Shown: positions 33,623 through 61,397 of the stretch, piece after piece | Numbering within the stretch: position 1 is the stretch's first letter | How the letters are laid out: each line of letters opens with the position of its first letter | Origin: Acidimicrobiales bacterium | Lineage (GTDB): Bacteria > Patescibacteriota > Minisyncoccia > Phycocordibacterales > UBA918 | NCBI GenBank assembly: GCA_047638595.1 | Contig: JBLIMJ010000001.1 | Coordinates: 7,768-71,767 of the forward strand | Reading direction: 5' to 3' | DNA: 64,000 bases | Program-made: the position numbers and the translations under genes | The notes under the pieces: generated by a model | Databases searched by the model: none | What the model saw: the letters and a program-made list of their open reading frames with translations, nothing else | What the model was told of the DNA's origin: nothing

Positions 33623-33626
33623 ACTA

Positions 33627-40313: not shown

Positions 40314-42605
40314 CTAACTCTCGCGATCAGGTAAATCAGACACTTTCTGACGAGGGAGTCGTACAATAAATGTAGTACCCTCATCCTCTACTGACTCAAA
40401 TGAGATGGAGCCACCAAATGATTCCACAATTGATTTTACAATGTACAGACCCAAACCGGAACCGCTACCTGGAACCATTGCGGTATTTGATGCCCGGTAA
40501 AATCGTCCAAACAACTTAGCTTGTTCGGCTTGAGGAATACCAATACCATCATCAGCGAGTTTCATAATTAATGAGGAATCATCGACTGCATACGAAACAG
40601 AAAGTGACCCCGGGTGACTACTATATTTAATAGCATTATCCATCAGATTTTGGAGCACTTGGCGCACACGTAACTTATCAACATATACAGTGACATTCTC
40701 CTCTAATCTATTATGTGAGATAGTAAACTGCTGTCGTTGTGCATATTCAGAAAGATCTGAAATAATCGAGTCGACAACAGGAGCAATAGCCACATCAGAT
40801 AAATTCAAATCAAGGATCTTCCCCTCTATCTTGGTAATATCGAGCATGTCGTTTACCATCATTATTAAACGCACTGTAGAAACTTCCACGTCATCAAGAA
40901 GCTCTTTCTGTTTCTTATTAAGCGCACCATAACTTTCATCCACAAGCATTTCAACGTTACCTCGCATAGAAGTAAGTGGAGTACGTAACTGATGAGAAGC
41001 TATCGCAACAAGTTCACTCTTAGAGCGTTCCAGGAGTTTTTCGTCAGTAATGTCATGTATGAAAATTACCGTACCATTGATATTGGACTGATTATGATAG
41101 TCAACCTCAATATTCCTTATCATGAACGTATACACTCTTCCATGCAGGTCTACTTCATTAATTTCGTCAGATATTCTGTCGAGGGCACAGCGCATGATAG
41201 TTTTTTTAATCTCTGGATCAGAAAACTTTTCAAACAAAGTCGGCATGATTATGAGTGGTTCAAACGAATCAATAGCTAGTAATCTTAATAACGCACCATT
41301 TACAAACTGAACTTGCCCATGTGTATCAATAAGAATTGCTGATGCGACCATACGCTCAGTAACAACACCGAGCTTCCATTTTTCCTGTGTTAACTCATAG
41401 GTACGTTCAGTGACTGTTTTTTCAATAATTTTTTTCTCACTGTCTAAATCCTCAAGGATATTGAGCGTTGCACTTCTACTATTCTCCAGTTCAGCATTGC
41501 GCTTCTTTGACATCTGCACAGAAATTTCAAGTTCTTTCGTTCTTTCCTCCACTTTCTTTTCTAGATTTTTCAGTGAATCCTTCAGTTTTGATGTCATCAC
41601 AGTGAAGGAGTTGGCCAAGTTGCCAATCTCATTCTTTAAATTATGATAGAGCGTAGTATCAAGTTCCCCATCACTAATCCTGAGCACACCTTGAGTGAGC
41701 TCAGTAAGTGGACTTAAAACTTTCTTGTGTAATAAAAATAATGCAATAATTAAATACAACACAAAAGAAAATATCAATATTCCTGATACTGTTAAGGAAA
41801 TTTGTAAATTTTTATATACGCTTTTTTGTGAAATTTCTACTACTACTCCCCATGAAGACAAAGGTATTTCTCTCCATGTACTAATTACGTTTTCATTATC
41901 TATACCTTGATATCTTGACAATTGTTGTTCTTTTTCAACAAAATTTTGAACTCCTTGAAAAGAATTTATTAACTCTTGTGAAGGAGGTTCCAATAAATTT
42001 TGTGATACAAGCAACTGCCCGTTTTTATCCACGACATACGCTTGTCCGTCTGGCACCCCTGCAATAATGCCCCAGAGGGAGCTCAGATCAATAGTTGCCA
42101 CCATAAGTCCTATTACTTGATCCCGTGCATCATAAATCGGTAAAGACCAAAAAAGAAACGGAACCCCAAAAGAGGACTGGTACGGACTAGAGATAAATTC
42201 AGAGCCACTGATTGACTGAATAAAGAAATTCTCTGAACTTACATTTTTAAGTTTTTTCTCAGTTTCAAAAGTGGAACCTTGAATATTTTTTATGAACTCA
42301 CCTGATTTATCATACGCATATAATTCCAAAATTGATGAATTGTTGTTTATAATTTCATTAAGAAAAGGATTATTTTTATCCGATGTAGCGATGTGTTTAC
42401 TTGCTAAAAGCAAATCACTTTGTATAGTGCCAAGTAGTCCAGAAACTTGAGTCTCAATTTTTATTGCTAGCTGATATGGGATTTGTTCGGCAGTTGATTT
42501 ATTGTTTTGATATTGAAACAATACAGAAAAATAGAGAACAACCCCCATAAAGAGCAACATAACAACTAGTGGGATGCCAAGCTGGAAAATAATCTTGTTT
42601 CTCAT
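40314..42605 (-). CDS. Sensor histidine kinase with extracytoplasmic Cache-like domain, HAMP and PAS
   Basis: Two TM segments flank a roughly 250-aa extracellular domain; HisKA ASHQLRTPLTSMRG; HATPase GSGLGLYIVKSIVE. Confidence 0.8.
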   Translation of the reverse strand: MRNKIIFQLGIPLVVMLLFMGVVLYFSVLFQYQNNKSTAEQIPYQLAIKIETQVSGLLGTIQSDLLLASKHIATSDKNNPFLNEIINNNSSILELYAYDKSGEFIKNIQGSTFETEKKLKNVSSENFFIQSISGSEFISSPYQSSFGVPFLFWSLPIYDARDQVIGLMVATIDLSSLWGIIAGVPDGQAYVVDKNGQLLVSQNLLEPPSQELINSFQGVQNFVEKEQQLSRYQGIDNENVISTWREIPLSSWGVVVEISQKSVYKNLQISLTVSGILIFSFVLYLIIALFLLHKKVLSPLTELTQGVLRISDGELDTTLYHNLKNEIGNLANSFTVMTSKLKDSLKNLEKKVEERTKELEISVQMSKKRNAELENSRSATLNILEDLDSEKKIIEKTVTERTYELTQEKWKLGVVTERMVASAILIDTHGQVQFVNGALLRLLAIDSFEPLIIMPTLFEKFSDPEIKKTIMRCALDRISDEINEVDLHGRVYTFMIRNIEVDYHNQSNINGTVIFIHDITDEKLLERSKSELVAIASHQLRTPLTSMRGNVEMLVDESYGALNKKQKELLDDVEVSTVRLIMMVNDMLDITKIEGKILDLNLSDVAIAPVVDSIISDLSEYAQRQQFTISHNRLEENVTVYVDKLRVRQVLQNLMDNAIKYSSHPGSLSVSYAVDDSSLIMKLADDGIGIPQAEQAKLFGRFYRASNTAMVPGSGSGLGLYIVKSIVESFGGSISFESVEDEGTTFIVRLPRQKVSDLPDRES

Positions 42606-44117: not shown

Positions 44118-45659
44118 TTATGATGTATAGTCGCCAAACTTTGCCTTAAGCTCTTCGATTTCTTTCTTAAGGGCTATCATTTTAAGCTCTCGATTCACAG
44201 TGACACTTTGGAACTTTTCAAGCTCCAAGAGCTTGGACTCTAGATCAAGCTGTGCATCTTGTAATGCTTTTGTTCTCTCCTGCACATTCTCTTCAAGATG
44301 TTCCTGCGATTCTGTGAGTGTTCGCATCGTCATATTATACACTTCGATCAAACGAGCTATTTCACCCCTTCCCTTTACCTTTACCTTAATCGTTTTAGTG
44401 AAATCACCAACCGCAGTCATGTTTGCTGCATTTGTTAATACAGTAATTGGATGAGTGACTGAAATCAACAAAAATAATATGATACAACTGAAAATAAATC
44501 CGAAGATAAGAGTGGCGAGTATTACGAATCTATCAAACGCATCGTCTGAATCTTCCCGCACCTCAAGAACCTCATGTTCCATGGTGAGTACCCATGGTAG
44601 ATAAATATCACTATCTTTTTGTTTAGAGTAGGCATATCCTGTAGAATGCGCAAGAAGCACTTCGTTGCCTGTGGCAAGAGTAACAAAATGATAGTCACCA
44701 ATATCATTCTCAATCCCATGATTATGCTCGTTACGGGCCAACAAATCATTAGGATTATTTTGACTGTTGGAATATATAAGTGTGTTATCTGTCTCAGCAA
44801 GGGTAAAGTACATTGACCTATGAGACTCATGCCCATGTGATACATGAATAGCAGACTCCTCTTCATCTCCATTATTCAGTGTGGTGAATATTTTTATTGT
44901 GTCAATAATTTCTGCAATATTTAGCACAGCTATTATAACTCCAGCCATCTCACCAGATTCATCAGCAATTGAAACTGCAATATCCATTGAGAACACTTCA
45001 GCGCTCTCATCATACACAACTGGTCCAACATAGATTCCCTCTGCAACTGCATGCTGCCACCAAGCCTCATCTGCTTGGTAATAATCAGTTGTTCTCCCTG
45101 TTTGGGCAATATTGGCACCATATACATTGGTTACAAATATTTCAGAGTAGACAGGGTATTCATACTCCTCAACAAAAAAACCTGATAATTCACGTAGCTC
45201 ATGTGACAATTCATTTTGCAACAAGCTATTCATAAGCTCTGTTGTTGTTCCCGCGGAAGTTGCAATCCATTGAGCATCCCGTTCCTGTATTGTACGAGCA
45301 ACATCATCTATCTTTGCAAAATTTTCATTGGAGTGCCTCAATACTGACTGAAGGGTGGTGTCACGAGTATATGCATGTATATACTCAACCCTTTTATTTA
45401 TATCACTCTGAATTTTATCCATCGCTTGTTGCACCACAACTACGGCATTCTCACCCATATCTTTACGAAATACATCCTCTGCATATTCAATAAAAAAGTA
45501 ATTCATTAATAAAAAACTTGCTGTACCTACAGTAAGAAGAAAGAGAGTAATTCTAATTACTATCCGTTGAAAAAAGGGCACTTTATATAGGTTTTTTATA
45601 TTTTCTGAAGCTTCTTTTTTTACTTTTTTTTCTGTATTCATAAAAAGAACATTGGTCAA
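44118..45659 (-). CDS. Membrane sensor protein with extracytoplasmic Cache-like domain, HAMP and coiled coil, with no recognisable output domain
   Basis: Two TM segments, a HAMP-like segment, then a heptad-repeat tail (ERTKALQDAQLDLESKLLELEKFQ...). Confidence 0.5.
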   Translation of the reverse strand: MTNVLFMNTEKKVKKEASENIKNLYKVPFFQRIVIRITLFLLTVGTASFLLMNYFFIEYAEDVFRKDMGENAVVVVQQAMDKIQSDINKRVEYIHAYTRDTTLQSVLRHSNENFAKIDDVARTIQERDAQWIATSAGTTTELMNSLLQNELSHELRELSGFFVEEYEYPVYSEIFVTNVYGANIAQTGRTTDYYQADEAWWQHAVAEGIYVGPVVYDESAEVFSMDIAVSIADESGEMAGVIIAVLNIAEIIDTIKIFTTLNNGDEEESAIHVSHGHESHRSMYFTLAETDNTLIYSNSQNNPNDLLARNEHNHGIENDIGDYHFVTLATGNEVLLAHSTGYAYSKQKDSDIYLPWVLTMEHEVLEVREDSDDAFDRFVILATLIFGFIFSCIILFLLISVTHPITVLTNAANMTAVGDFTKTIKVKVKGRGEIARLIEVYNMTMRTLTESQEHLEENVQERTKALQDAQLDLESKLLELEKFQSVTVNRELKMIALKKEIEELKAKFGDYTS

Positions 45660-46032
45660 AAATACTTCTACTACACAACTCTAGCCGTCAACTGTATCTA
45701 AATAATAACATCCTTTACGTTGTCTATTTTGGAATATACACTTAACAAAAAAAAGGGAGTGTACTATACTCGTTTCCTTACTTAGTCTAGGGATTTTGCC
45801 CAGGAAAGCACAAAGTCCAGAACTGTCCAATTTTTAATGACTGGAAGGGATCACTTCGTCGTATGAAAAACATAGTCGTTATCACTCCTTGTTTTACACA
45901 ATAAAAATGGAAATACTCTTGGGGTAAAATTCGAAATAGGATCTTCGACACTTTTCTCATTTGGTCCAGCGATTTGCCCAAGGGCAGAACAAATCGGGAC
46001 ATAAATTCGACATAGTCGTTACACTCCTTGTC

Positions 46033-46800
46033 TCATTTAAAGAAGGAATCAGAGAGAATAACAGCGAAATCTCTAAAGGTCATACGTCCATCCCCCGTAA
46101 AGTCATACACTTCTGTTTTCGAAGTCCATGCTGCCATAAAGCGGCTCAAGTCAGCTAAAGACACTTTTCCATCACCATTAATATCAGTCACAATCCTGAC
46201 AGTTACTGAGCCTTCTACAGAAGAACCATTTGATGGGTCATATTTTCCATCTTCATTAGCAACGTACAGCTGAGTACTTTCTTCTCCGCTATCAGTAACA
46301 GCCACTTCTAAACCAGAACCATCTCCAGCAATTAACCTACTGTCAGCGATTTCAAATGTTGCAAGTCCTGAGGTATTTGCTTTTGCCCTAACTGTTGCTA
46401 TCAAATGATCACCGAGGAACCCCTTGCGAAACGTCCCCCCACGAAGTACAACAGTATTGTCCTGCACATAGGGCTGTTCAGTCCACAAAGTAATCACAGA
46501 CTGACCAGTATCAATACCAAGGACTTCTACCTGCACATCTGGAAAAGCTAAAGCGATATCTATCGCATTTACAGGAACATGCGCAGAGACAAATACATTA
46601 ATTTTAAAAATTTCACCTTCGCGGACAGAACTCGCTGATGATTCAATTCGAATGTTCGTCTGTGACGTTGAATCAATTACACTCGCACCAAGAAAAGCAG
46701 CCACAACAAAAAGCAGCGGGAAAGCAAAACGCACCGTACGACTTTTATTGGGCCGGTATGGTGCGAAAATATTATTTAGTATTTTTTTTATAAGGTTCAT
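46033..46800 (-). CDS. Secreted cohesin-domain protein with a C-terminal type-I dockerin
   Basis: Cohesin-like beta-sandwich (GEIFKINVFVSAHVPVNAIDIALAFPDVQVEVLGIDTG...GLATFEIADSRLIAGDGSGLEV) plus a dockerin duplication DINGDGKVSLADLSRFMAAW / DFTGDGRMTFRDFAVILSD. Confidence 0.6.
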   Translation of the reverse strand: MNLIKKILNNIFAPYRPNKSRTVRFAFPLLFVVAAFLGASVIDSTSQTNIRIESSASSVREGEIFKINVFVSAHVPVNAIDIALAFPDVQVEVLGIDTGQSVITLWTEQPYVQDNTVVLRGGTFRKGFLGDHLIATVRAKANTSGLATFEIADSRLIAGDGSGLEVAVTDSGEESTQLYVANEDGKYDPSNGSSVEGSVTVRIVTDINGDGKVSLADLSRFMAAWTSKTEVYDFTGDGRMTFRDFAVILSDSFFK

Positions 46801-47462
46801 AATCCAATTATATCTTCACGTATAGCATCAATTTTAACACCAATATACGAAAGGGTATCATTTACCTCTTGTGCTTTAGTCACCTCGCTAAGCATTTGCG
46901 CTGACTGTACAGAAACCCCGTCGAGCAAGGCCTGGATAATATCCTTCTGAATCACTACTAACTCAGAAGAAAGACTGCTTCTTTGAAGCTCAAATGAAGC
47001 TAGTTCTGACCATTTTGCTACTGGATAGAATATTTGTTCTGATCTTGAATCCACAATATCTAAAAGAGTGACGTAGTCTTGATACACTTCAAACTCCCGA
47101 TTAAGACGTGCGACCATTAATGCTTTTCGTTCTGCATAGAAATCACCACAAGCGCCAAAGAGTTGATCTACTTCAACTAACTCTGCTTTATTAAGTGTTC
47201 CTAGGTTTCCAAGCAATTCATCAAACTTTTGTCGATCTTGTGTATCACAATCCTTCACAATCTCCGCAACAACAGCATCTGCTCCATTACGATCAGTCAC
47301 TTCAGCAATAGAAATGAGGGTGGTCTCTTGTTCTGAGACGAGCAACTTCATGGTAGAGACATACTCAGCTTGTTGTGTGTGTATATAAAGAGAAACTCCA
47401 TAAAACACAGATCCTAAAATTATAAGGCTACCAAAGATGTACTTCTTTTCAATATTTTTCAT
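46797..47462 (-). CDS. Membrane-anchored alpha-helical/coiled-coil protein (hypothetical)
   Basis: N-terminal TM; overlaps both neighbours by 4 bp, so it is operonic. Confidence 0.35.
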   Translation of the reverse strand: MKNIEKKYIFGSLIILGSVFYGVSLYIHTQQAEYVSTMKLLVSEQETTLISIAEVTDRNGADAVVAEIVKDCDTQDRQKFDELLGNLGTLNKAELVEVDQLFGACGDFYAERKALMVARLNREFEVYQDYVTLLDIVDSRSEQIFYPVAKWSELASFELQRSSLSSELVVIQKDIIQALLDGVSVQSAQMLSEVTKAQEVNDTLSYIGVKIDAIREDIIGL

Positions 47463-47465
47463 AGA

Positions 47466-49199
47466 CTATTCAACAATTTTTTCTACATCAGTAATCTCCT
47501 TTTCAACCTTCTTTTGAGCACTCTGAAGTGCCTCCTCTACCGCCTCAATAAGCACAGCCTCTGCCTTAGTTAACTTTTTTGTTTTTCGTGAAGAAGATAA
47601 CAAATCTGAATGGGTCCGAACGACTTTCCTTAAAGCCTCAAACTCAGCACCCAACATGACTAACGCTTCATCAGTTTCTCTAGTAACACCAGTTCGCAAC
47701 CGTCGTAGTCGGACAAACAAGAACCAAAGGCCTAGTATAGACAGTATAGTCAACGCAAGCAATGGAATCAGCACAGAGAGGATACTTACCACAACTGAGC
47801 CTATTCGAATATAACCTGGCTGTTGTACAGCAATACGGACTACATCACTCATCTCACTCTGTGCTCCGCGTTCATCAACAGCCACAGCAGAAAGCTCATA
47901 GACACCTAAAGAAAGCCTCCCTTCAGGGATAAAGATGAACTCTCCTGTTTCAGAACTTAGGATCGATATCTCCTGTGTATCACTTCCTATTTTAGTAAAC
48001 AACACTTTCACTTCAGCATTTGGTCGAGTAATACCTTTTATAACAGGAATAACGTCCTTTGAAACCTCAGACGGGTACTCAGTAAACTGAGGCTTATCAA
48101 ATGCAAGAACACCAAACGATATAGAGTCAATCAAGCTGTTTCCAGCACTATCAAAAGCTTCAATAATTACACTATGATGACCAGGCTCAAGTGATGGCAA
48201 GACCAGCTGACCCTTCTCATCTTCATCGATAAATTCAAAAGGTTCTCCACCGTCAATCTGTATCAAAAATCTTACTACAGCAGAGGTGTCATCCTCGGTC
48301 TTCAATACTAAAGTTTGTATAGGACTTGTTAAATCCACCCCTTCAGACAGTGTTACCTTAAAAGATGTCGGGGGTTTTGAATCAATCGCAATTCTATAGT
48401 GTGCTACACGCCCCCAACCATCGCCATTTCTAAACTGCATATGGAAATACTGCACACCTTCATCTAGGTCTGACAGTGAAATGCTCGAAATAGGTGTATC
48501 GTAGACTTTTGTTGGGATAGAACCACTATTCTCGTCTAAACGTGTCCTTACGGCAGTGACCCCTGCCGGCAGCGCCCACGATAACTCAGCAGACTTCTCT
48601 GTATACCAACCCTCCGGTTCAGGATGTGTTTTCGAGTTAATTACTGGAGCTGCAGGTGTATTTGCGGGTGCGATGTATTCTATTGTTTCTGGCTCAGGAC
48701 TCACTTCTGCAGAGACTATAGTAAACGAGCCCCCATTCATTGAAGTAAGAACATTGGTTCCACGTCCGTCTGCTGCGAGCACTGCCCCGCTGGTAAAAGA
48801 AACTCTAGGGTTCCCAGCGCCCTTAGTTCGGAAGGTTACAGAGATTACCGATCCTCCGCTCCCTGTGTAGCCGGTTGGACTACCTCCACTAAAGGAAATG
48901 GTTCCCGCACTATTTGAGAAAGAAGGTTCGGCTGTCCAAAGATTAAAAATTGAACCTTTAGTGACTCGCACAACACTCAACTCTCCAGGCTTGAAAGAAA
49001 GTTTTCCTTCCGCAGCGTTTATATTTTTACCCGAAGTATTTACCACCACGCGAGCAGTGAAAGTCTGACCAGCTGTGTACACACCTGTGCCTGGTGAAAC
49101 AGAAAGTGTAGCTGCATATGATGATGATGCTACACCACAAATAACTGCAAGTAAGAGCATTTTTATTGCAATAACAAAGTTGTGGTGTGTCAGATGCAT
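47466..49199 (-). CDS. Cohesin-domain surface protein with Ig-like middle region, C-terminal TM and cytoplasmic coiled-coil tail
   Basis: Signal peptide. Cohesin-like segment LSVSPGTGVYTAGQTFTARVVVNTSGKNINAAEGKLSFKPGELSVVRVTKGSIFNLW...GSVISVTFRTKGAGNPRVSF. TM IGSVVVSILSVLIPLLALTILSILGLWFLFV, then a basic/coiled-coil tail. Confidence 0.55.
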   Translation of the reverse strand: MHLTHHNFVIAIKMLLLAVICGVASSSYAATLSVSPGTGVYTAGQTFTARVVVNTSGKNINAAEGKLSFKPGELSVVRVTKGSIFNLWTAEPSFSNSAGTISFSGGSPTGYTGSGGSVISVTFRTKGAGNPRVSFTSGAVLAADGRGTNVLTSMNGGSFTIVSAEVSPEPETIEYIAPANTPAAPVINSKTHPEPEGWYTEKSAELSWALPAGVTAVRTRLDENSGSIPTKVYDTPISSISLSDLDEGVQYFHMQFRNGDGWGRVAHYRIAIDSKPPTSFKVTLSEGVDLTSPIQTLVLKTEDDTSAVVRFLIQIDGGEPFEFIDEDEKGQLVLPSLEPGHHSVIIEAFDSAGNSLIDSISFGVLAFDKPQFTEYPSEVSKDVIPVIKGITRPNAEVKVLFTKIGSDTQEISILSSETGEFIFIPEGRLSLGVYELSAVAVDERGAQSEMSDVVRIAVQQPGYIRIGSVVVSILSVLIPLLALTILSILGLWFLFVRLRRLRTGVTRETDEALVMLGAEFEALRKVVRTHSDLLSSSRKTKKLTKAEAVLIEAVEEALQSAQKKVEKEITDVEKIVE

Positions 49200-49205
49200 A
49201 CGTTT

Positions 49206-50267
49206 TTAATTATCTTCATCTTCTAATTCATCTTCGCTATCAACATCTTCACCAGTTTCAGCAGCACTCTTTCGTCTGAAGAAGAACAATACAGTAAATA
49301 CAAAACCTGAAAGGACAAAGATCCCGATACCTGTCGCAATCAACGCAATCATCACTTTCACCTCTGCAGTCATTGTTCGTTGTGCTTCGTCTGGCACGTA
49401 TATCGCAACATATTCATTCCCAGCCTTGTCTATAGCACGCACTCGAATAGTACTATTAAGTGTCTGATCTTTTAGTACATAAGGACTTTTTACTTCCTTC
49501 CATGGAGCGTCTTCACGTCCCCAATTAAATAAACTAGCTTCAGTCATAGACTCCTCAATTACTTCATAGTGATCAATACCTGACTGCTTGTCAGTAGTAT
49601 TAAAAACAATAAAATAATCATTACTAAATGCATTTTTTGTTCTTTCCAGAGTAATACTGAACTCTTCTGGGTCTATCTCGTCAGCGTTTACAATATCACC
49701 CCATTCATTATTAATGCTTGAGCCAGGTGTTTTTGAAAGCTCGATACTAGTACCTAATAATGTTAATGGTGCCAATGTTCCAAAACCGTCATTGAGTAAT
49801 ACTTGTGTCTGTTGACCAAAAGCAATTTGTCCCTGGTTTGTATCTCCGGATGCTCCAATAACAAAACCGGGAGACTGAAAAAGTAAATCAACAACAACAT
49901 TTGTTAAACGAGGATCACCTGCAATACGGCCACAATAGCCATTAGGTATACCTCCTGCAAAAGTAATAGTTTTATTAGAACGATCAATAATTGGTTCCTC
50001 AACCCACATACTCAGAATAGAAGCACCACGTGAGATGTCGACAGGTTGGATATTATCCGAGTATTTAATAACACCATCAACAACATTTACACATTCATCC
50101 TCATCAGTGTCCAACCGAACAGAGACTTTAAGAGTATCGCCTCGAGATAGTTCAGCGTGGTTGGGATCCATATACAATGTTGCCGCTTGAGTCTGAGTTG
50201 CCCCCAACAAAAAGACTGCAAAGAGACCAACGATAAGTTTCCTATTCATATAGTGTAAGTATAGCAA
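49206..50267 (-). CDS. Cohesin-domain surface protein with C-terminal TM and acidic cytoplasmic tail
   Basis: Signal peptide; GDTLKVSVRLDTDEDECVNVVDGVIKYSDNIQPVDISRGASILSMWVEEP...ITFAGGIPNGY; TM MIALIATGIGIFVLSGFVFTVLFFF; tail EDVDSEDELEDEDN. Confidence 0.5.
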   Translation of the reverse strand: MLYLHYMNRKLIVGLFAVFLLGATQTQAATLYMDPNHAELSRGDTLKVSVRLDTDEDECVNVVDGVIKYSDNIQPVDISRGASILSMWVEEPIIDRSNKTITFAGGIPNGYCGRIAGDPRLTNVVVDLLFQSPGFVIGASGDTNQGQIAFGQQTQVLLNDGFGTLAPLTLLGTSIELSKTPGSSINNEWGDIVNADEIDPEEFSITLERTKNAFSNDYFIVFNTTDKQSGIDHYEVIEESMTEASLFNWGREDAPWKEVKSPYVLKDQTLNSTIRVRAIDKAGNEYVAIYVPDEAQRTMTAEVKVMIALIATGIGIFVLSGFVFTVLFFFRRKSAAETGEDVDSEDELEDEDN

Positions 50268-50431
50268 TCGTACGGCAATCTAACATGTGTTTTATGCACA
50301 AAACATAAACAAAGACCATTGATATTAAAATAATTTTAGCCATGTTCGTCCGGTAATTTCTTTTAGGGAAAGAAAGAAATTGGGACCTGAATTCACAAAT
50401 ACCCTTCGGCTATTTGTTCACTCAAAGAGAA

Positions 50432-50468
50432 AAACCCGTCTCGTGGTGGGAGATAGGGTTTTTCTATA
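50432..50468 (-). terminator. Terminator-like hairpin downstream of the 50575..51663 gene
   Basis: aaaaacccgtctc-gtggtgg-gagatagggttttt (imperfect stem with flanking T/A runs). Confidence 0.35.
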
Positions 50469-50574: not shown

Positions 50575-51663
50575 TTAAAACGTTGGTGTTGCTATGTACG
50601 TTAGGACTGCAGAGTAGTCGTCTCCAGCTTCCTGAAGCGCAGAGATTTCTGTCTTGAATCCAATAGTAGTAGTACCAACACCTACACCTGTTCCACTTGC
50701 TGGACCATCATTTCCCATAACAGCTCGGGGAGTTGTTGTTGCGCCAATGAATTGACCTGCAACAAACTGAGTTCCTCGCGAAGTGATAGTAGTATCATCA
50801 GATGAGATACCCCACCATCCGTATGTGCTATCAACACCTAATGTAGGTGATGTGGGTGATACCCAGTTTCCTGGAACATCAGCGTCATTGATTCCATCAA
50901 TGTCAGCACCTGTTGATGATTCTAGTGCACCGTCCACTTGGACAGTAACTACATATCCATTAGATGCGTTTGTTGAAACAGACAGCTCATGAGCTGAAGA
51001 CGTTGCAACTAATGCATCTAACTTACCAAAGGTAACTGAAGTTGAAGCAGCAGCACCAGTTGTAGTTGCTCCTCCTGAACTTAGTTCAGTGTTAGCAGCT
51101 GTACCAGATACCGTAAAGGTAAAGATGGTATCAACTGTAGCTGTAACTGTAACTGCAGTAAGAATTACAATTCGTGTTGATCCTGTGTCAGTCATGGATC
51201 CTCCGAGAAGAATCTCGTATGAACCTTCAGAACCAGGACTTGTGACGAAGTTTGTAACACCTACGACAACATCGACAACGCTTGCAGCTGCAATGCTACC
51301 AGTAGCAACAGTCAAGGTAACAATTTGACCTGCACCAGCTGCTGATACGTTAGCACTAATGTCTGACGAATCATCATCAATAGTTACATCACCATCAACG
51401 ATTGAACCAATTCCTGTAAACCCTGAAGGGAAAGTGAAAGTGATTGTCTCCCCGTTCGCCACTCCAGTTGGAGTGACGAAAGAAAAAGTATGTGTTGGTG
51501 CAGCACTAGGCGATGAATCAGTAATTGTGTCGCTAAACGAACTCACGTTCGCAGCGTCCACAAAGCGAAGTGACGGCAAGCCAAGCGACCATAAAAGAAT
51601 CGCGAAACCTGCAATCATTGCAATAGTTTTGAGCATTCCGACAGATTTTTCTGTTCGAAACAT
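50575..51663 (-). CDS. Secreted T/S/G-rich surface protein with a WxL-like C-terminal domain
   Basis: Signal peptide, then low-complexity T/S/G/V-rich beta-type sequence. The C-terminal block (...GWWGISSDD...DDYSAVLTYIATPTF) is shared with the C-terminus of the 1414-aa protein (...DYYNTITYIAVPVF). Confidence 0.45.
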   Translation of the reverse strand: MFRTEKSVGMLKTIAMIAGFAILLWSLGLPSLRFVDAANVSSFSDTITDSSPSAAPTHTFSFVTPTGVANGETITFTFPSGFTGIGSIVDGDVTIDDDSSDISANVSAAGAGQIVTLTVATGSIAAASVVDVVVGVTNFVTSPGSEGSYEILLGGSMTDTGSTRIVILTAVTVTATVDTIFTFTVSGTAANTELSSGGATTTGAAASTSVTFGKLDALVATSSAHELSVSTNASNGYVVTVQVDGALESSTGADIDGINDADVPGNWVSPTSPTLGVDSTYGWWGISSDDTTITSRGTQFVAGQFIGATTTPRAVMGNDGPASGTGVGVGTTTIGFKTEISALQEAGDDYSAVLTYIATPTF

Positions 51664-51957: not shown

Positions 51958-52696
51958 CTATTACAGGGGACACCGAGTGTCCCCTGTAGTAAAATCTATA
52001 TATTGCTATGGAATTCTATCATGTAATAAATAGAGGAGTTGATAAACGTACTACCTTTCAAGAGGAGGGTGACTACTTACGTTTTATACAAAACCTTCAC
52101 ATATACAACAGCACAGAATCGGCGCCACATAATGTCTGGTCAACATCTGCCCGCATGAAAATAATGCCTGTAAAAAAATTAGTGACTATTCATGCGTACT
52201 GCCTCATGCCTAACCATTATCACCTTTTACTCTCACCTCTTGTCGATGACGGAATCACTAAGTTCATGCATAAGGTCGGCATGGGATACTCAAAATATTT
52301 TAATGAGAAAAATGAGCGTACTGGTGTCTTATGGCAAGGTAAATATAAAAGCATAAATATTACAACTGACGCACAGTTAAACTACATCCCTTACTATATA
52401 AATCTTAACGCTCTAGATCTTTCACACCCACAATGGAGACGCGGTGCTGTTACAAACACACAAAATGCATTAACTCGGCTACAGCAATACAAGTGGAGTA
52501 GTCATTCTCTATTTTTATACCCTGAAAAAATAGACACATCAATCCTTAGTGGAAGTTTTTTTACTAAAGAGCTAAGTCAGGCAAAATATATACAGGAAAT
52601 AGTAAATATTATTTCCGACAAAACCCTGGCTCAATATAGCGAAAGTATTGAACTAAAATAAATTACAGGGGACACCGAGTGTCCCCTGTAATTTAT
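51958..52696 (+). mobile_element. IS200-like minimal insertion element / RAYT-type unit: Y1 transposase gene bounded by identical perfect hairpins
   Basis: The left hairpin tacaggggacac-cgag-gtgtcccctgta (51962-51989) and an identical right hairpin (52664-52691) flank a single HUH transposase ORF. The unit is about 0.74 kb, typical of IS200. Confidence 0.6.
52008..52661 (+). CDS. tnpA: Y1 HUH transposase (IS200/IS605 TnpA / REP-associated tyrosine transposase family)
   Basis: HUH motif in HAYCLMPNHYHLLL, and a catalytic-Tyr region GMGYSKYFNEKNERTGVLWQGKYKS. Confidence 0.8.
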   Translation: MEFYHVINRGVDKRTTFQEEGDYLRFIQNLHIYNSTESAPHNVWSTSARMKIMPVKKLVTIHAYCLMPNHYHLLLSPLVDDGITKFMHKVGMGYSKYFNEKNERTGVLWQGKYKSINITTDAQLNYIPYYINLNALDLSHPQWRRGAVTNTQNALTRLQQYKWSSHSLFLYPEKIDTSILSGSFFTKELSQAKYIQEIVNIISDKTLAQYSESIELK

Positions 52697-52706
52697 TTTT
52701 CGGTTG

Positions 52707-53909
52707 TTAACCTGTCCAGTTGAAGAGCAGTATGGAAAAATCCTCTAGGCCGACTCTGTCGTTGCCGTTTATATCAGCTGGGGGGTTTGAGTTGCCGCCT
52801 GTTGTTCCCCACCAGAATATTAAAATGGAGAAGTCAATCAAATTAATAAGACCATCACGGTTTAGGTCTGAAGGTGTTGTTGGTGACCCATCCACTCCTA
52901 AAAATAACTGTAACGTAGAACTAAAACTACTTTCTGTAGTAAGAGAACCTGAACCAAGAATAAAACGGGCACGAGCTGTATATTCAGCTGCAGAGAGTCC
53001 ACTTGTATCAAAATCAATGTTCCAATAACCACCACTATCAGAAATGGTTGTGAGAACTTGGTCACTATCGCCAATGTGGACTTCAAGTGAAGTGTTCTGA
53101 ACAGCCTGTCCTGCAAAAGTGATAGTATCCCCAGGATTGATTGTAGAATCAGATACTACAATTGTTGGTGGAACAAGAATCCCTGCAACCTTTGTGATTG
53201 CTCCTTGCGTCACATCAAATGTAGTACCAAATGTAATCGATCGAATGTTATCGTCATCTTCAACCCAAAAACCCATTGAAATAGTCCCGGGTGAAGTATT
53301 AGAGGTAAACTCAAAATTACCAGCACTGTCAGCCTTCACGGTACCCACAGATTTAGCATCAAGAATAATGTTGACTTTCGCTCGCGGGATAGTTTTACCA
53401 GTTACATTTACCTGAGTATCACCAAAATCCTCATCACTTCCGCCAGACGGCTGAGTACCGCCACCTGAAGAACCGCCACTTCCAGAACCAGCTGGCTCAA
53501 TGGTACAGTCTGCATTACAGAAGTCACCTGAAATATTATTCCCATCATCACACTCCTCAGCATAGATAGTCTGCAAAATACTGTCCCCGCAATACGGTCC
53601 AAAATCACAATCCACATCGCACTGTCTACCTAAGATAGAAGTGCTGTATGCACCTGTTTCACCCAACACATCACAAGTCTCATCAACATCAACAATTTCA
53701 TTTCCACAGATACTTGTCGTTAAACTAGTTGTTGCAATATAACCCCCAGATATTACTTGCGCAGTAGCTACCTGACTTAGCAAGAAAAAACACCCTACTA
53801 CAGCAAGTGCAGCAGGTAGGGCGTTTAACTCATGCAAAAAAGTAACAAATTGTCTCATGGTAAAACTACGCCCGTGTCCGCCTACGACGTTCCCTGTACG
53901 TATGCGCAA
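52707..53909 (-). CDS. Secreted protein with Myxococcus-type cysteine-rich repeats, Ig-like domains and a C-terminal type-I dockerin
   Basis: Signal peptide; CGNEIVDVDETCD...YCGDSILQTIYAEECDDGNNISGDFCNADC (CxxCGDG...ECDDGN pattern); C-terminal DLNRDGLINLIDFSILIFWW / DINGNDRVGLEDFSILLFNW. Confidence 0.55.
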   Translation of the reverse strand: MRIRTGNVVGGHGRSFTMRQFVTFLHELNALPAALAVVGCFFLLSQVATAQVISGGYIATTSLTTSICGNEIVDVDETCDVLGETGAYSTSILGRQCDVDCDFGPYCGDSILQTIYAEECDDGNNISGDFCNADCTIEPAGSGSGGSSGGGTQPSGGSDEDFGDTQVNVTGKTIPRAKVNIILDAKSVGTVKADSAGNFEFTSNTSPGTISMGFWVEDDDNIRSITFGTTFDVTQGAITKVAGILVPPTIVVSDSTINPGDTITFAGQAVQNTSLEVHIGDSDQVLTTISDSGGYWNIDFDTSGLSAAEYTARARFILGSGSLTTESSFSSTLQLFLGVDGSPTTPSDLNRDGLINLIDFSILIFWWGTTGGNSNPPADINGNDRVGLEDFSILLFNWTG

Positions 53910-54813
53910 GGAGTAACATCAGAACAAGTAAAGATAAGATTGGAAGCAATACAGACAGCTTGTGTGCTGATGAGAGACCAGTAAATCCAAATCCAGCAGT
54001 TTGCAATGTCCCGTACGGCAGAATATTGAGATTAAGTTCACCTTGATACTTCACATCTTCATCATTCATGATTTCATAACGTGCAAGGTACGAACCTGTA
54101 GGTAGACGAGTCGGAACCTCAGCTACAATTTCTTCAGTTCCAAATGGTTCAATTTTTGTCAATTTACCCTTATTTGTTGTCTCTTCAAGTAATACAGTCC
54201 CTGAAGTATCATAAATTTTAAATACAATTTCTGAAGGAGATACATCAACGTTACCTGTATTTTCAAGGAGCATCGCAAAATTTATTTTTCCTGGAAAGTA
54301 AAGCCATCCGACTTTTGTACCTTCATTTAGATCATTGACCCCTACTTTACGAAGTCTAAAATCTTTTATAACTTTATCAATAACATGTAATTCAATATCA
54401 ATTTGAGCGCCGAGAGATATATTAACCGCACCTGTAGCAACAGCATCGTCAGTTGCCCCAGTTTTAATTCTTATAGCTCCTGTATACGTTTTAAAATCAG
54501 CATCATCGGGTACGGTAACACGGACAGTCATAGGAACCTTTTGTTCACCACGAGGGAGCGTAAAAGTTTCCCCTTGAATAATCTCAATCCAGTCAGATAT
54601 AGCTGGTGCGTCAACAGTAATAGATGCTTTTAGAGGTGTAGTGGGGTCTCCTCGAACAAGAAGGATTTGTTGTTCATAGGTCGAATTTCGAGTAAGACTC
54701 GTATTTCGAACAAATGGTGGAGTGACCCCAAAACCAGCCAGCACAGAATCAGCACCAAAGAGTACAAATATCACAATTGCTAATAGTACAGTTTTTGTAA
54801 AGAGGGTAGTCAT
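53866..54813 (-). CDS. Cell-surface protein, DUF916/DUF3324-like, C-terminal TM anchor (third paralog)
   Basis: GFGVTPPFVRN..., WIEIIQGETFTLPRGEQKVPMTVRVTVPDDADFKTYTGAIRIK, LENTGNVDVSPSEIVF, then TM plus RERRRRTRA tail. Overlaps the downstream gene by 44 bp. Confidence 0.5.
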   Translation of the reverse strand: MTTLFTKTVLLAIVIFVLFGADSVLAGFGVTPPFVRNTSLTRNSTYEQQILLVRGDPTTPLKASITVDAPAISDWIEIIQGETFTLPRGEQKVPMTVRVTVPDDADFKTYTGAIRIKTGATDDAVATGAVNISLGAQIDIELHVIDKVIKDFRLRKVGVNDLNEGTKVGWLYFPGKINFAMLLENTGNVDVSPSEIVFKIYDTSGTVLLEETTNKGKLTKIEPFGTEEIVAEVPTRLPTGSYLARYEIMNDEDVKYQGELNLNILPYGTLQTAGFGFTGLSSAHKLSVLLPILSLLVLMLLLAHTYRERRRRTRA

Positions 54814-56872: not shown

Positions 56873-58087
56873 CTATTCGTAACGAATTGCATCCAAGGGA
56901 TTGAGTGTTGCTGCACGTTTTGCTGGAAAAATACCAGTAAGATACCCTACCCCAGCAGAGAAAACGGCGATAAATGTAAGGAAATCAAGAGGAAAAGCAA
57001 ACAGATTTACGGACTGACCACCATATTGACTTGCTGCAAAATTGAGCATTAAGTTTACGATAGTACCCAAAGCTACCCCCATAATGATACCTGTAACACC
57101 CCCCAAAAATCCTACAACTATCGACTCGGAAACAAAGAGCCACTTAATATCACTCGGTGAAGCTCCAATAGTTCGCATGATTCCAATCTCTTTTGTTCGC
57201 TCAAGAAGTGTCACTGTCATGGTATTAAACATACCAATGGCTGATACAAGAAGCGCAATACCTCCAAAGGTTGCAAGTACGGCCTGTACACCCTGAAAGA
57301 TTTTAGTAGCTTGCTCAACAGTTTTTGACAACGCTGTCACACGATACCCAGCTTCGATGAGCTCACCCTCAACTATCGGGAGAAATTCATTAGTATCTAC
57401 ACGAACCTGGATACGTTCATACTCTTCAATACCAACGTGACTCCGCAACTCAGGCAGCATCATTAATGCATTAAGTACCCCCTCTTCCTTTGTAATACCT
57501 TTTACGGTGTACTCCTTATCTATATAAATCTCATTAACCTCATCTGTACCATCTTCAGCAGGTACTAAAAGACGGAATTTTACCTTTTCTCCAATAAATT
57601 TATCTATTTCCTCATCCTCGACACCAAAAAGTTTTAATACAGCAGGGGAAAGCATAATTTCGTTAGTGTTATCAATGTCTTCATCATCAAATACCTCCCC
57701 ATAAGATGCAATAATACCTGCATAACGAACATATGGGGGCTCTGCACCCTGAATAAACAAGTTCCCAGTAAGACCTTTGTAGGTAACCAACGCTGGAAAC
57801 CGAGCAAGAGGAGCTGCATCAAGCACGTGTTCATTTTCTTCAAACTCTACAACTGTTTGTGCTGTCAACTGCAAATTCTGTGCACCTGTAGCTGACACAC
57901 CAAGAGACAGGAGCGTTTCCCCAAACACGATTTGCTCTAGAATAATCTGCTGTAGGCCAAAACCAAGACCTACAAGAACAACCACAGCACCGGTTCCCAC
58001 TCCCATGCCTAAAATAGTCAACCAAGTACGCATGGGGTTGGTTTTAAAAGCTCGTGTTGAAAGCTGTGCTAAATCTTGAACGCGCAT
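56873..58087 (-). CDS. ABC transporter permease, FtsX/MacB family
   Basis: 404 aa with TM1, a large extracytoplasmic domain and three C-terminal TM helices, which is the FtsX-type topology. Confidence 0.8.
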   Translation of the reverse strand: MRVQDLAQLSTRAFKTNPMRTWLTILGMGVGTGAVVVLVGLGFGLQQIILEQIVFGETLLSLGVSATGAQNLQLTAQTVVEFEENEHVLDAAPLARFPALVTYKGLTGNLFIQGAEPPYVRYAGIIASYGEVFDDEDIDNTNEIMLSPAVLKLFGVEDEEIDKFIGEKVKFRLLVPAEDGTDEVNEIYIDKEYTVKGITKEEGVLNALMMLPELRSHVGIEEYERIQVRVDTNEFLPIVEGELIEAGYRVTALSKTVEQATKIFQGVQAVLATFGGIALLVSAIGMFNTMTVTLLERTKEIGIMRTIGASPSDIKWLFVSESIVVGFLGGVTGIIMGVALGTIVNLMLNFAASQYGGQSVNLFAFPLDFLTFIAVFSAGVGYLTGIFPAKRAATLNPLDAIRYE

Positions 58088-58115
58088 AATGTTTTTCTAA
58101 GTATACGACACTGTG

Positions 58116-61352: not shown

Positions 61353-61397
61353 AGCACTAGTGGTTTATGAAACAGTGAAAGAAGTCCCCAAATATTT

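What the first reader, a model, noticed from the sequence alone, without database searches (positions are those of the whole stretch)
46033..50267. Cohesin/dockerin cell-surface operon: three cohesin-domain proteins (two membrane-anchored) plus dockerin-bearing proteins
Three consecutive minus-strand genes each contain one cohesin-like beta-sandwich. The diagnostic pattern, seen in all three, is two hydrophobic-alternating strands around a '...VLGID/VVRVTKG/VDISRG...' segment followed by 'ISF.GG.P.GY' or 'ITFAGGIPNGY'. Two of them (47466..49199 and 49206..50267) end in a TM helix plus a charged cytoplasmic tail. The third (46033..46800) ends in a canonical duplicated dockerin, DINGDGKVSLADL / DFTGDGRMTFRDF. 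A second dockerin protein lies 2.4 kb away (52707..53909: DLNRDGLINLIDF / DINGNDRVGLEDF) and also carries Myxococcus-type cysteine-rich repeats (CGDG...ECDDGN). Established knowledge: cohesin-dockerin pairs mediate Ca-dependent protein assembly and also occur outside cellulosomes. Inference: membrane-anchored cohesins displaying dockerin-tagged partners would form a surface scaffolding system. The scaffoldins are anchored by a C-terminal TM plus coiled-coil tail rather than SLH or sortase, which is unusual.
Basis: partly seen in the sequence, partly recalled or inferred. Interest (0 to 1): 0.65.

Follow-up and report, generated by a model that had tools for sequence, protein, structure and literature searches.

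The report
Cohesin-dockerin genes in CPR pilus-like locus
The cohesin and dockerin modules are real, but they are not a stand-alone scaffolding operon: they form the tightly coupled tail end of a roughly 12-gene surface-appendage locus, conserved in hundreds of Parcubacteria-type (CPR) species, that also encodes a distant relative of the newly described Pam pilin and a MacB-type ABC transporter.

Summary
Protein C (47466..49199) passes the Pfam Cohesin threshold. D (49206..50267) and A (46033..46800) share the same module by profile-profile comparison (99.4% and 98.7%), and an AlphaFold model of D matches solved cohesins. A carries a dockerin above threshold. F (52707..53909) carries one 0.6 bit below threshold that is the most conserved extracellular module in the locus. 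C and D are type-I membrane proteins.

These genes are the last four (D-C-B-A; B was overlooked) of a locus with invariant order: ABC ATPase, MacB/FtsX permease, H, G, F, E, D, C, B, A. The window also has FN3 and DUF2341 genes upstream. C homologs occur in at least 584 species genomes, nearly all named as Patescibacteria; gene order was checked in 84 loci. E is a two-domain protein whose C-terminal domain matches NCBIfam's Pam pilin model below cutoff, and its linker looks like a donor strand. No enzymes, carbohydrate-binding modules or multi-cohesin scaffoldins are present, so it is not cellulosome-like.

Best reading: Ca-dependent cohesin-dockerin contacts tether secreted parts (F, A) to membrane stalks (C, D) at the base of a Pam-like fibre. 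Binding is inferred, not shown. I rate it a new variant of known kinds, interest about 0.6.

The parts
46033..46800 (-). A: 255-aa protein with an N-terminal hydrophobic anchor or signal (aa 25-43), a cohesin-like module (aa ~50-175, nt 46276..46653) and a C-terminal dockerin (aa 203-255, nt 46036..46194)
   Evidence: Dockerin_1 26.7 bits > cutoff 22.9. 37/41 orthologs hit Dockerin_1 and 13/41 hit Cohesin. hhalign to the C cohesin 98.7%. Hydropathy. Ca loops DINGDGKVSLAD and DFTGDGRMTFRD are conserved.
46797..47462 (-). B: 221-aa orphan protein with an N-terminal TM helix (aa 9-27) and two invariant Cys (C72, C105). It overlaps A by 4 nt.
   Evidence: No Pfam, NCBIfam or PDB match. Present in 76/84 loci between C and A. 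Least conserved member at 28% identity.
47466..49199 (-). C: 577-aa type-I membrane protein. Signal peptide, membrane-distal cohesin (aa 30-165, nt 48705..49112), FN3/Ig stalk including Big_13, TM helix (aa 470-488, nt 47736..47792), and a conserved 89-aa charged helical cytoplasmic tail (nt 47469..47735).
   Evidence: Pfam Cohesin 31.8 bits > 24.1 and Big_13 34.8 > 27. More than 1000 homologs at 57-70% identity over the full length. Invariant tail residues R538, K539, K542, L543, A546, E547. Hydropathy.
49206..50267 (-). D: 353-aa (gene aa from M7) type-I membrane protein and shorter paralog of C. Signal peptide, cohesin (aa ~29-180, nt 49728..50183), FN3-like domain (nt ~49398..49658), TM helix (aa 305-323, nt 49299..49355), acidic 30-aa tail.
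   Evidence: hhalign to C 99.4-99.7% over up to 317 columns. AF2 pLDDT 81.9. Foldseek top hits are cohesins, with 2w1n (cohesin+FN3) best at E=3e-9.
50425..50462 (-). Bulged hairpin plus T-run downstream of E: a candidate terminator or attenuator separating E from D-C-B-A
   Evidence: Sequence read. Across related loci, 45/54 have a hairpin (dG<=-9) plus T-run within 300 nt after E, against 7/81 in coding controls.
50575..51663 (-). E: 362-aa secreted two-domain protein and candidate major fibre subunit. It has a nine-strand beta-sandwich NTD, a linker with invariant alternating hydrophobics (aa 168-180, nt 51124..51162), and a CTD (aa ~181-362) distantly related to the Pam pilin C-terminal domain.
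   Evidence: NF058581 CPR_Pam_pilin_C 26.3 bits (cutoff 55), E=6.3e-6, covering profile positions 2-148 of 148. 32/41 orthologs hit it. AF2 pLDDT 83.8 with nine NTD strands and the linker as coil. Foldseek hits are MSCRAMM adhesins and the pilins EbpB and CfaE/CfaB. Invariant V171, V173, A175, V177, T179. The gene is isolated, with median gaps of 560 nt upstream and 134 nt downstream.
52707..53909 (-). F: secreted protein (gene aa, starting at 53858). Signal peptide, myxo-type Cys-rich repeats (nt 53490..53738), two Ig-like domains, and a C-terminal dockerin (aa 345-400, nt 52710..52877).
   Evidence: TIGR02232 42.1 bits > 20.8. DUF4215 30.6 > 27; Dockerin_1 22.3 vs 22.9. The dockerin is the most conserved part of F (0.80-0.90 per 20-aa block, mean distance 0.15). 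hhalign A-F 93.8%. Orthologs carry weak Dockerin_1 hits.
53866..54813 (-). G: 315-aa highly conserved protein. Signal peptide, about 258 aa of beta-rich ectodomain, and a C-terminal TM helix (aa 286-304). It has the same topology as the membrane-anchored Pam chaperones, but homology is not shown.
   Evidence: 65% mean column identity. Only generic E-set/beta-sandwich Pfam hits in a few orthologs. No PDB hit. Hydropathy.
54909..56789 (-). H: 626-aa Thr/Ser-rich surface protein with an N-terminal hydrophobic helix. It is a paralog of the DUF2341 protein.
   Evidence: hhalign H vs DUF2341 protein 98.5% over 482 columns. No family hits. Present in every locus where the flank reaches it.
56873..59483 (-). 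MacB-type ABC transporter: permease (56873..58087; MacB_PCD + FtsX) and ATPase (58116..59483; ABC domain plus an extra C-terminal extension of about 200 aa)
   Evidence: Pfam FtsX 67.9, MacB_PCD 56.7, ABC_tran 105.8 bits. NCBIfam MacB/LolCDE-like hits below equivalog cutoffs. Adjacent to H in 40-48 loci.
59889..63896 (-). Upstream surface proteins: FN3-repeat protein (59889..61352) and DUF2341 protein (61398..63896)
   Evidence: Pfam fn3 67 bits, Pur_ac_phosph_N 67.9, DUF2341 56.6. FN3 fragments lie upstream of the ATPase in 19 loci at the edge of the fetched flank. An FN3 gene sits at the same place in L002.

Best explanation
Genes D, C, B and A are the translationally coupled 3' end of a conserved surface-appendage locus of about 12 genes in Parcubacteria/Paceibacteria-type CPR bacteria.

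Shown:
- C and D are paralogous type-I membrane 'stalk' proteins. Each has a cohesin at the membrane-distal N-terminus, then FN3/Ig domains, one TM helix and a cytoplasmic tail.
- A carries a cohesin plus a dockerin.
- F carries Cys-rich repeats, Ig domains and a dockerin.
- E, between F and D, is a separately terminated gene for a two-domain secreted protein distantly related to Pam pilins.
- A MacB-type ABC transporter and conserved beta-rich proteins (G, H) lie upstream.

Inferred:
- The dockerins of F and A bind the cohesins of C, D and/or A in a Ca-dependent way. This would build a non-covalent, membrane-anchored base or adaptor complex.
- That complex would organise or tether an extracellular fibre polymerised from E by donor-strand exchange. 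It would play the anchoring role that the membrane-anchored FnIII protein PamR is proposed to play in Saccharimonadia.
- G may act as a membrane-anchored chaperone.
- The ABC transporter may supply mechanical work or extraction, possibly via C's conserved cytoplasmic tail.
For: - Module identities.
- Topology.
- Locus conservation and invariant order in 84 loci, with C homologs in at least 584 species genomes.
- Tight coupling of D-C-B-A and G-F, while E is isolated with a hairpin plus T-run in 45/54 loci.
- Exactly two dockerins in the 64 kb window, both in this locus.
- F's dockerin is as conserved as the ABC permease (distance 0.15), which implies a constrained partner.
- E resembles Pam pilins. 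Its CTD hits NF058581 below cutoff in 32/41 orthologs. It has a nine-strand NTD, and its linker has invariant alternating hydrophobics and is unpaired in the monomer model. This matches the published Pam pilin architecture (bioRxiv 10.64898/2026.03.03.709456).
- That paper describes C-terminal TM anchoring of Pam chaperones and of the PamR anchor. This is the same topology as G, C and D.
- Established knowledge: cohesin-dockerin pairs bind tightly and need Ca, including non-cellulosomal archaeal pairs (as summarised in PMC9012536).
Against: - No binding or complex prediction was possible.
- D itself has no Pfam Cohesin hit, and F's dockerin is 0.6 bit below cutoff.
- A's C-terminus scores about as well against generic EF-hand models.
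- E is below the curated Pam cutoff (26 vs 55 bits), and no solved Pam structure was available for comparison.
- G shows no detectable PapD-like signal.
- Nothing physically links E to the cohesin-dockerin proteins except synteny.
- Rate covariation did not single out a cohesin-dockerin pair.
- The published pam operon contains no cohesin, dockerin or ABC genes.
Confidence: 0.45

Rival explanations
1. Stand-alone cohesin-dockerin surface display. Membrane-anchored C and D simply display dockerin-tagged F and A on the cell surface as an adhesive complex. This would be unrelated to E or the ABC transporter, which would merely be neighbours.
For: Cohesin and dockerin modules are confirmed. F has adhesin-like Cys-rich and Ig domains. 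E is transcriptionally separated from D-C-B-A by a terminator-like hairpin. The published pam operon lacks cohesin and dockerin.
Against: Gene order ATPase-Perm-H-G-F-E-D-C-B-A is invariant across 84 loci, with E lying between the F dockerin gene and the cohesin genes. No component is hypervariable as adhesins usually are. There is no cargo enzyme.
Confidence: 0.25
2. The 'cohesins' are only structural beta-sandwich spacer domains, and the 'dockerins' are Ca-binding EF-hand-type stabilising modules. On this view there is no specific cohesin-dockerin recognition, and the locus builds an envelope layer or sheath from E and H with help from the ABC transporter.
For: D lacks a direct Cohesin HMM hit. 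EF-hand models score similarly to Dockerin_1 on A. The best PDB profile hits of A are EF-hand proteins. Cohesin-like folds also occur in proteins with no known dockerin partner, such as TMEM132 (PMC6030884), and the Foldseek hit list included the CLIPPER adhesin domain 9ifr. All parts are uniformly conserved.
Against: Both module types co-occur in one locus in every genome examined, and the window has no other dockerin. F's dockerin is the most conserved extracellular module, as expected for an interface. Both dockerins are C-terminal, duplicated loop-helix units with no preceding E-helix. That is the dockerin layout, not a calmodulin-like one.
Confidence: 0.2
3. An FtsEX-like or Lol-like envelope-remodelling or lipoprotein/cell-wall machine, in which the MacB-type transporter regulates extracytoplasmic partners and the cohesin proteins act as adaptors.
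For: The MacB_PCD + FtsX permease and ABC ATPase are invariably linked to the locus. C has a conserved cytoplasmic tail.
Against: No hydrolase, LysM, peptidoglycan-binding or lipoprotein signal was found in any locus protein. The locus is dominated by Ig/FN3/beta-sandwich surface proteins and a pilin-like gene.
Confidence: 0.07

Closest known systems
Non-cellulosomal cohesin-dockerin pairs (e.g. the Archaeoglobus fulgidus cohesin 2xdh; the Clostridium perfringens GH84C cohesin+FN3 module 2w1n)
   Same: They are single cohesin modules outside cellulosomes with a matching fold. The D model matches 2w1n at E=3e-9 and 2xdh at TM 0.75. Dockerin partners are encoded in the same genome.
   Different: Here the cohesins sit on TM-anchored stalk proteins within a conserved multi-gene appendage locus. 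One protein (A) carries both a cohesin and a dockerin. No glycoside hydrolase or toxin cargo is present.
Cellulosome anchoring scaffoldins (C. thermocellum OlpA/OlpC/SdbA, R. flavefaciens ScaE)
   Same: They are cell-anchored proteins with a single cohesin that hold a dockerin-bearing partner. The OlpC cohesin 4dh2 is among the best structural matches (TM 0.75, rmsd 3.2 A).
   Different: Anchoring here is by a C-terminal TM helix rather than SLH domains or sortase. There is no multi-cohesin primary scaffoldin, no CBM and no dockerin-bearing enzymes.
Pam pilus system of CPR bacteria (Ca. Mycosynbacter amalyticus; bioRxiv 10.64898/2026.03.03.709456)
   Same: It is found in CPR bacteria. Its pilin has a nine-strand NTD, a linker donor strand and a CTD. 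Its accessory proteins are anchored by C-terminal TM helices, and it needs no outer-membrane usher. E matches the NCBIfam Pam pilin C-domain model over its full length.
   Different: E scores 26 bits against a 55-bit cutoff. The lineage is Parcubacteria/Paceibacteria-type, not Saccharimonadia or Microgenomatia. The locus adds cohesin and dockerin proteins, a MacB-type ABC transporter and DUF2341/H paralogs, none of which is mentioned for pam operons. Only one clear pilin gene is present.
TMEM132 family (animals; PMC6030884)
   Same: It has the same overall layout as C: signal peptide, cohesin, tandem bacterial-Ig-like domains, a single TM helix and a cytoplasmic tail.
   Different: It is eukaryotic and has no known dockerin partner. 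The resemblance is in architecture only, and homology beyond the shared domain families was not tested.
MacB-type (type VII) ABC transporters: MacB, LolCDE, FtsEX
   Same: The permease has the MacB periplasmic core domain plus the FtsX four-helix domain, and the ATPase is a separate polypeptide.
   Different: Scores are far below every equivalog cutoff. The ATPase has an extra C-terminal extension of about 200 aa. The substrate or partner is unknown.

Membership tests
Cohesin (Pfam PF00963) | HMM score at or above the gathering cutoff (24.1 bits) | tested here: met
   C scores 31.8 bits over aa 42-160, covering profile positions 11-138 of 139. Nearly all of the 120 listed C homologs carry PF00963. 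D scores nothing and A scores nothing in the window proteins; 3/41 and 13/41 of their orthologs hit at E<0.01.
Cohesin (Pfam PF00963) | Cohesin-type beta-sandwich fold in each of the three modules | tested here: met
   D is met directly: AF2 pLDDT 81.9, and about the top 25 Foldseek PDB hits are cohesins at TM 0.70-0.75 normalised to target. C and A are met only by homology to D and C (hhalign 99.4-99.7% and 98.7-99.1%). They were not modelled.
Cohesin (Pfam PF00963) | Specific Ca-dependent binding of a dockerin | not testable with these tools
   No multimer prediction or experiment was available. Rate covariation was not domain-specific.
Dockerin type I (Pfam PF00404) | HMM score at or above the gathering cutoff (22.9 bits) | tested here: met
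   A scores 26.7 bits, and 37/41 orthologs hit. F scores 22.3 bits, 0.6 below cutoff. F orthologs have weak precomputed hits, and hhalign A-F gives 93.8%.
Dockerin type I (Pfam PF00404) | Duplicated 12-residue Ca-binding loop (D-x-[DN]-x-[DN]-G-x5-D), each followed by a helix, at the C-terminus | tested here: met
   A has DINGDGKVSLAD and DFTGDGRMTFRD. F has DLNRDGLINLID and DINGNDRVGLED. All are conserved across orthologs. The 3D loop geometry was not modelled.
Cellulosome | Scaffoldin with multiple cohesins, dockerin-bearing carbohydrate-active enzymes, and a CBM | tested here: not met
   Each protein has one cohesin. The window has only two dockerins. No GH or CBM domain was found in any locus protein.
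Pam pilus system (NCBIfam NF058581; bioRxiv 10.64898/2026.03.03.709456) | Pilin C-terminal domain scoring above the curated cutoff (55 bits) | tested here: not met
   E scores 26.3 bits, E=6.3e-6, over the full profile. 32/41 orthologs hit at E<0.01, with a best of 1e-7. E is a distant relative, not a member by the curated rule.
Pam pilus system (NCBIfam NF058581; bioRxiv 10.64898/2026.03.03.709456) | Two-domain pilin: nine-strand NTD, single linker donor strand, truncated-Ig CTD | tested here: inconclusive
   The AF2 model has nine NTD strands, a coil linker at aa 168-180 with invariant V-x-V-x-A-x-V-x-T, and a beta-rich CTD. Groove and strand complementation could not be examined because model coordinates are not exposed and no Pam structure was in the PDB copy.
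Pam pilus system (NCBIfam NF058581; bioRxiv 10.64898/2026.03.03.709456) | PapD/FimC-like chaperones with a C-terminal TM helix (PamC/PamD) | tested here: inconclusive
   G has the right size and topology: signal peptide, about 258 aa of beta-rich ectodomain and a C-terminal TM helix. It has no PapD-like sequence signal.
MacB-type ABC transporter | MacB_PCD + FtsX permease with a cognate ABC ATPase | tested here: met
   MacB_PCD 56.7, FtsX 67.9 and ABC_tran 105.8 bits, all above Pfam cutoffs.

The most novel reading that the evidence does not exclude
Parcubacteria/Paceibacteria-type CPR bacteria build a distinct, class-wide surface fibre. A Pam-like pilus assembled by donor-strand exchange is anchored and organised by non-covalent, Ca-dependent cohesin-dockerin bonds to TM stalk proteins, rather than by an usher, a sortase or a PamR-type strand insertion. 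The fibre is coupled to a MacB-type ABC motor. This would be the first case of cohesin-dockerin modules serving as integral parts of a pilus machine.
Probability: 0.3. Interest if true: 0.8.

Novelty: new variant of a known kind. Interest (0 to 1): 0.6.

Why it matters
Parcubacteria/Paceibacteria are among the most diverse and abundant CPR lineages, yet almost nothing is known about how they contact hosts. This locus spans about 18 kb in the window, a large investment for genomes that appear to be only about 1 Mb (the complete chromosome among the related loci, CP060229.1, is 0.99 Mb). C homologs occur in at least 584 species genomes, and gene order is invariant in the 84 loci examined. Public records annotate it almost entirely as 'hypothetical protein'.

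Three consequences follow if the model holds:
- It would extend the Pam pilus family, described only in 2026, to another major CPR class.
- It would give cohesin-dockerin pairs a new biological role as structural parts of an appendage machine.
- It offers cheap, decisive experiments, because recombinant cohesin-dockerin binding is simple to test.

Cohesin-dockerin pairs with new specificities are also useful parts for protein engineering.

Tried and rejected
- **Cellulosome reading:** rejected. No GH or CBM domains, single cohesins only.
- **PDB searches by sequence:** uninformative. The C profile reaches cohesins only at E about 0.3. D, E, G and B get no hits. A hits EF-hand proteins first and a dockerin at E=0.011.
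- **Pilin-like C-terminal domain in H and the DUF2341 protein:** the E-CTD vs H alignment is collinear with matching motifs, but pairwise P is 0.027 over 8 comparisons, so it is not significant. The full-length all-vs-all comparison gave nothing for E.
- **Evolutionary-rate covariation to pair dockerins with cohesins:** not domain-specific. The A dockerin tracks the whole of C (0.34-0.49) more than the D cohesin (0.18). The F dockerin is too conserved to be informative.
- **Consensus promoter and terminator scan:** at chance level.
- **Mini-ORFs downstream of A:** not conserved in 76 loci.
- **The adjacent dCache/HAMP protein (44118..45659):** considered as part of the system. A sequence homolog follows A in only 1 locus.
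- **First all-vs-all script:** timed out.
- **Literature:** searches for cohesin/dockerin in CPR, Parcubacteria or Patescibacteria found no description of this locus. Peer et al. 2009 is not held.

Full report
**What is in the sequence.** The interval 46033..50267 holds four minus-strand genes, not three. I call them A (46033..46800), B (46797..47462), C (47466..49199) and D (49206..50267).

C passes the Pfam Cohesin gathering threshold with 31.8 bits against 24.1, covering aa 42-160 and nearly the whole profile. It also has a Big_13 Ig domain. D and A do not hit Cohesin themselves, and only 3/41 D orthologs and 13/41 A orthologs do at E<0.01. The three N-terminal modules are nevertheless clearly homologous. 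BLASTP gives C-D 3e-12, D-A 5e-6 and C-A 5e-4. Family profiles give D vs C 99.4% (E=3e-21) and A vs C 98.7% (E=1.6e-16).

An AlphaFold2 model of D (66-sequence MSA, pLDDT 81.9) has a signal helix, a beta domain at 23-175, a second beta domain at 198-284 and a long TM helix. Its top ~25 Foldseek PDB hits are all cohesins, at TM 0.70-0.75 normalised to the target and rmsd about 3-5 A. The best hit is the cohesin+FN3 double module of C. perfringens GH84C, and the hits include the non-cellulosomal A. fulgidus cohesin. The cohesin observation is therefore confirmed for all three proteins: directly for C by HMM and for D by fold, and by homology for A.

**Dockerins and topology.** A scores 26.7 bits against Dockerin_1 (cutoff 22.9), and 37/41 of its orthologs hit the model. 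F (52707..53909; gene call starts at 53858) scores 22.3 bits, 0.6 below cutoff. F also passes the myxo-type Cys-rich repeat model TIGR02232 and DUF4215.

Both dockerins are C-terminal duplicated Ca-loop-plus-helix units, and the loops are conserved in orthologs. A regex scan of all six frames finds only four such loops in the 64 kb window, two in A and two in F.

Generic EF-hand models score similarly on A, and A's best PDB profile hits are EF-hand proteins, ahead of a dockerin at E=0.011. The dockerin call is therefore good but not beyond doubt.

Hydropathy analysis and the D model give the following topologies:
- C and D have a cleavable signal peptide, an ectodomain, one TM helix (C 470-488, D 305-323) and a cytoplasmic tail.
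- C's tail is 89 aa, charged and helical, with invariant residues.
- D's tail is 30 aa and acidic.
- A and B have N-terminal hydrophobic anchors.

**The wider context changes the picture.** C belongs to a family of about 580-aa proteins with more than 1000 members at 57-70% full-length identity. Where a source names them, the names are mostly Parcubacteria, Nomurabacteria, Pacebacteria or Patescibacteria.

A scan of species-representative genomes found at least 584 genomes with a C homolog. Nearly all of the 80 retrieved are named as Patescibacteria lineages. In 84 loci the order ATPase-Perm-H-G-F-E-D-C-B-A is invariant wherever the fetched flank reaches. In the window, an FN3 protein and a DUF2341 protein lie further upstream.

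Gene spacing across loci is informative:
- D-C, C-B and B-A are separated by medians of -8, 7 and 2 nt. G-F is separated by 2 nt.
- E is isolated, with a median of 560 nt upstream and 134 nt downstream.
- 45/54 loci have a strong hairpin plus T-run after E, against 7/81 in coding controls. The window's copy is at about 50425..50462.

All components are moderately to strongly conserved, at 45-60% mean pairwise identity (B 28%). F's dockerin is as conserved as the ABC permease, both at a distance of 0.15. Nothing is hypervariable. This is the signature of a conserved machine, not an ad hoc display system.

**The pilin link.** E (50575..51663) matches NCBIfam NF058581 'CPR_Pam_pilin_C' over the whole 148-position profile. 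E scores 26.3 bits (E=6.3e-6), below the 55-bit cutoff, and 32/41 orthologs also hit it.

The Pam pilus was described in 2026 from Ca. Mycosynbacter amalyticus. Its features as published are:
- Pilins have a nine-strand beta-sandwich NTD, a single linker strand donated to the next subunit's truncated-Ig CTD, and a signal peptide.
- Chaperones PamC and PamD and the FnIII anchor PamR are held in the membrane by C-terminal TM helices.
- The system was reported mainly in Saccharimonadia and Microgenomatia.

The AF2 model of E (pLDDT 83.8) has an N-terminal signal helix and exactly nine NTD strands. Its linker at aa 168-180 is coil in the monomer but carries invariant alternating V171, V173, A175, V177 and T179. 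A beta-rich CTD follows. Its PDB fold matches are two-domain MSCRAMM adhesins and the pilins EbpB and CfaE/CfaB.

The Pam paper and its held supplement do not mention cohesin, dockerin, ABC transporters or Parcubacteria. E is therefore best described as a distant, sub-threshold relative of Pam pilins in a differently composed locus.

**Other members of the locus.**
- C and D are paralogs over cohesin, FN3-like domain and TM helix (99.7%, 317 columns). C has extra Ig inserts.
- H and the DUF2341 protein are paralogs (98.5%).
- G is the most uniformly conserved ectoprotein (65% mean column identity). It has a signal peptide, about 258 aa of beta-rich ectodomain and a C-terminal TM helix. That is the topology of PamC and PamD, but no PapD-like sequence signal was found.
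- B is an orphan with an N-terminal TM helix and two invariant Cys.
- The transporter is MacB-type (MacB_PCD + FtsX + ABC_tran). Its ATPase has an extra C-terminal extension of about 200 aa.

**Mechanism.** The following are shown: module identities, topologies, locus conservation and operon layout.

The following are inferred:
- (i) The dockerins of F and A bind the cohesins of C, D and/or A with Ca. This rests on established cohesin-dockerin biology, including verified non-cellulosomal archaeal pairs (as summarised in PMC9012536). It is also supported by exclusive co-occurrence of the modules and by the extreme conservation of F's dockerin.
- (ii) E polymerises by donor-strand exchange.
- (iii) The cohesin-dockerin complex forms the membrane-anchored base or adaptor of that fibre.
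- (iv) G acts as a chaperone, and the ABC transporter supplies work.

My confidence falls from about 0.6 for (i) and 0.5 for (ii) to about 0.3 for (iii) and lower for (iv). An exploratory rate-covariation analysis did not identify a specific dockerin-cohesin pair.

**Comparison with known systems and novelty.** By the membership tests, C is a cohesin-family member, and D and A are divergent members shown by fold or homology. A's dockerin is a member, and F's is borderline.

The system is not a cellulosome. It has no multi-cohesin scaffoldin, no enzymes and no CBM. It is not a Pam system by the curated rule. It resembles anchoring scaffoldins such as OlpC in using a single cell-anchored cohesin, but it uses a TM helix instead of SLH domains or sortase. 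It also resembles animal TMEM132 in overall architecture.

GenBank annotates the window's proteins as hypothetical, except F, which is named 'cysteine-rich repeat protein'. I found no paper describing the locus. I rate it a new variant of known kinds.

**Caveats.**
- Two fold libraries were unavailable.
- Taxon labels of many MAGs appear to be generic.
- The source MAG is labelled Acidimicrobiales. That label conflicts with the window's GC of about 40% and with homologs that are almost all named as Patescibacteria.

Noticed in passing
window 45787..46033 (minus strand): Two copies, 140 nt apart, of ACAAGGAGTG(A)TAACGACTATG (a Shine-Dalgarno sequence plus ATG). Each heads a Cys/Pro/Trp-containing mini-ORF: MSNLCPDLFCPWANRWTK and MFFIRRSDPFQSLKIGQFWTLCFPGQNP. 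They are not found downstream of A orthologs in 76 loci, and the window has only these two copies.
   Followed up: partly
window 52008..52661 (+): An IS200-type Y1 transposase or REP-associated tyrosine transposase-like gene lies on the opposite strand in the F-E gap. Its scores are Pfam Y1_Tnp 38 bits and NCBIfam REP_Tyr_transpos 37.9, below the 80-bit cutoff. In L003 a NUDIX gene sits in the same gap, and the F-E gap is the longest and most variable in the locus (median 560 nt).
   Followed up: partly
window 32570..35306 (-): Type IV pilus machinery, with a T2SSE/PilB-like ATPase (404 bits) and a T2SSF platform protein, lies about 11 kb from the locus. L003 has the same genes about 4 kb downstream of A. 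This may be recurrent linkage of two appendage systems.
   Followed up: no
window 20805..25049 (-): A 1414-aa protein with an N-terminal Ice_binding-like domain (PF11999, 89 bits), followed by more than 1100 aa with no family hit.
   Followed up: no
whole window: The exact proteins are deposited as 'Acidimicrobiales bacterium' MAG proteins (MFT7506918-26) on an 87.5 kb contig. However, window GC is about 0.40 and nearly all named homologs are from Patescibacteria. The contig is probably mis-binned or mislabelled.
   Followed up: partly
window 54909..56789 and 61398..63896 (-): H and the DUF2341 protein are paralogs over about 480 columns (hhalign 98.5%). Both end in a C-terminal strand motif resembling E's terminus, but the E-H similarity is not significant (P=0.027).
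   Followed up: partly
window 58116..59483 (-): The ABC ATPase has a C-terminal extension of about 200 aa beyond the ABC domain, and the extension is kept in length in orthologs (about 440 aa). C's cytoplasmic tail has an invariant basic motif, SRKTKKLTKAEA. A tail-to-extension contact is conceivable but untested.
   Followed up: no
window 44118..45659 and 40314..42605 (-), 38325..40304 (+): A dCache+HAMP membrane protein with no kinase domain lies directly downstream of A, and two histidine kinases lie nearby. L003 also has a HAMP protein, a PAS kinase and a response regulator after A, but the HAMP protein is a sequence homolog in only 1 of 84 loci.
   Followed up: partly
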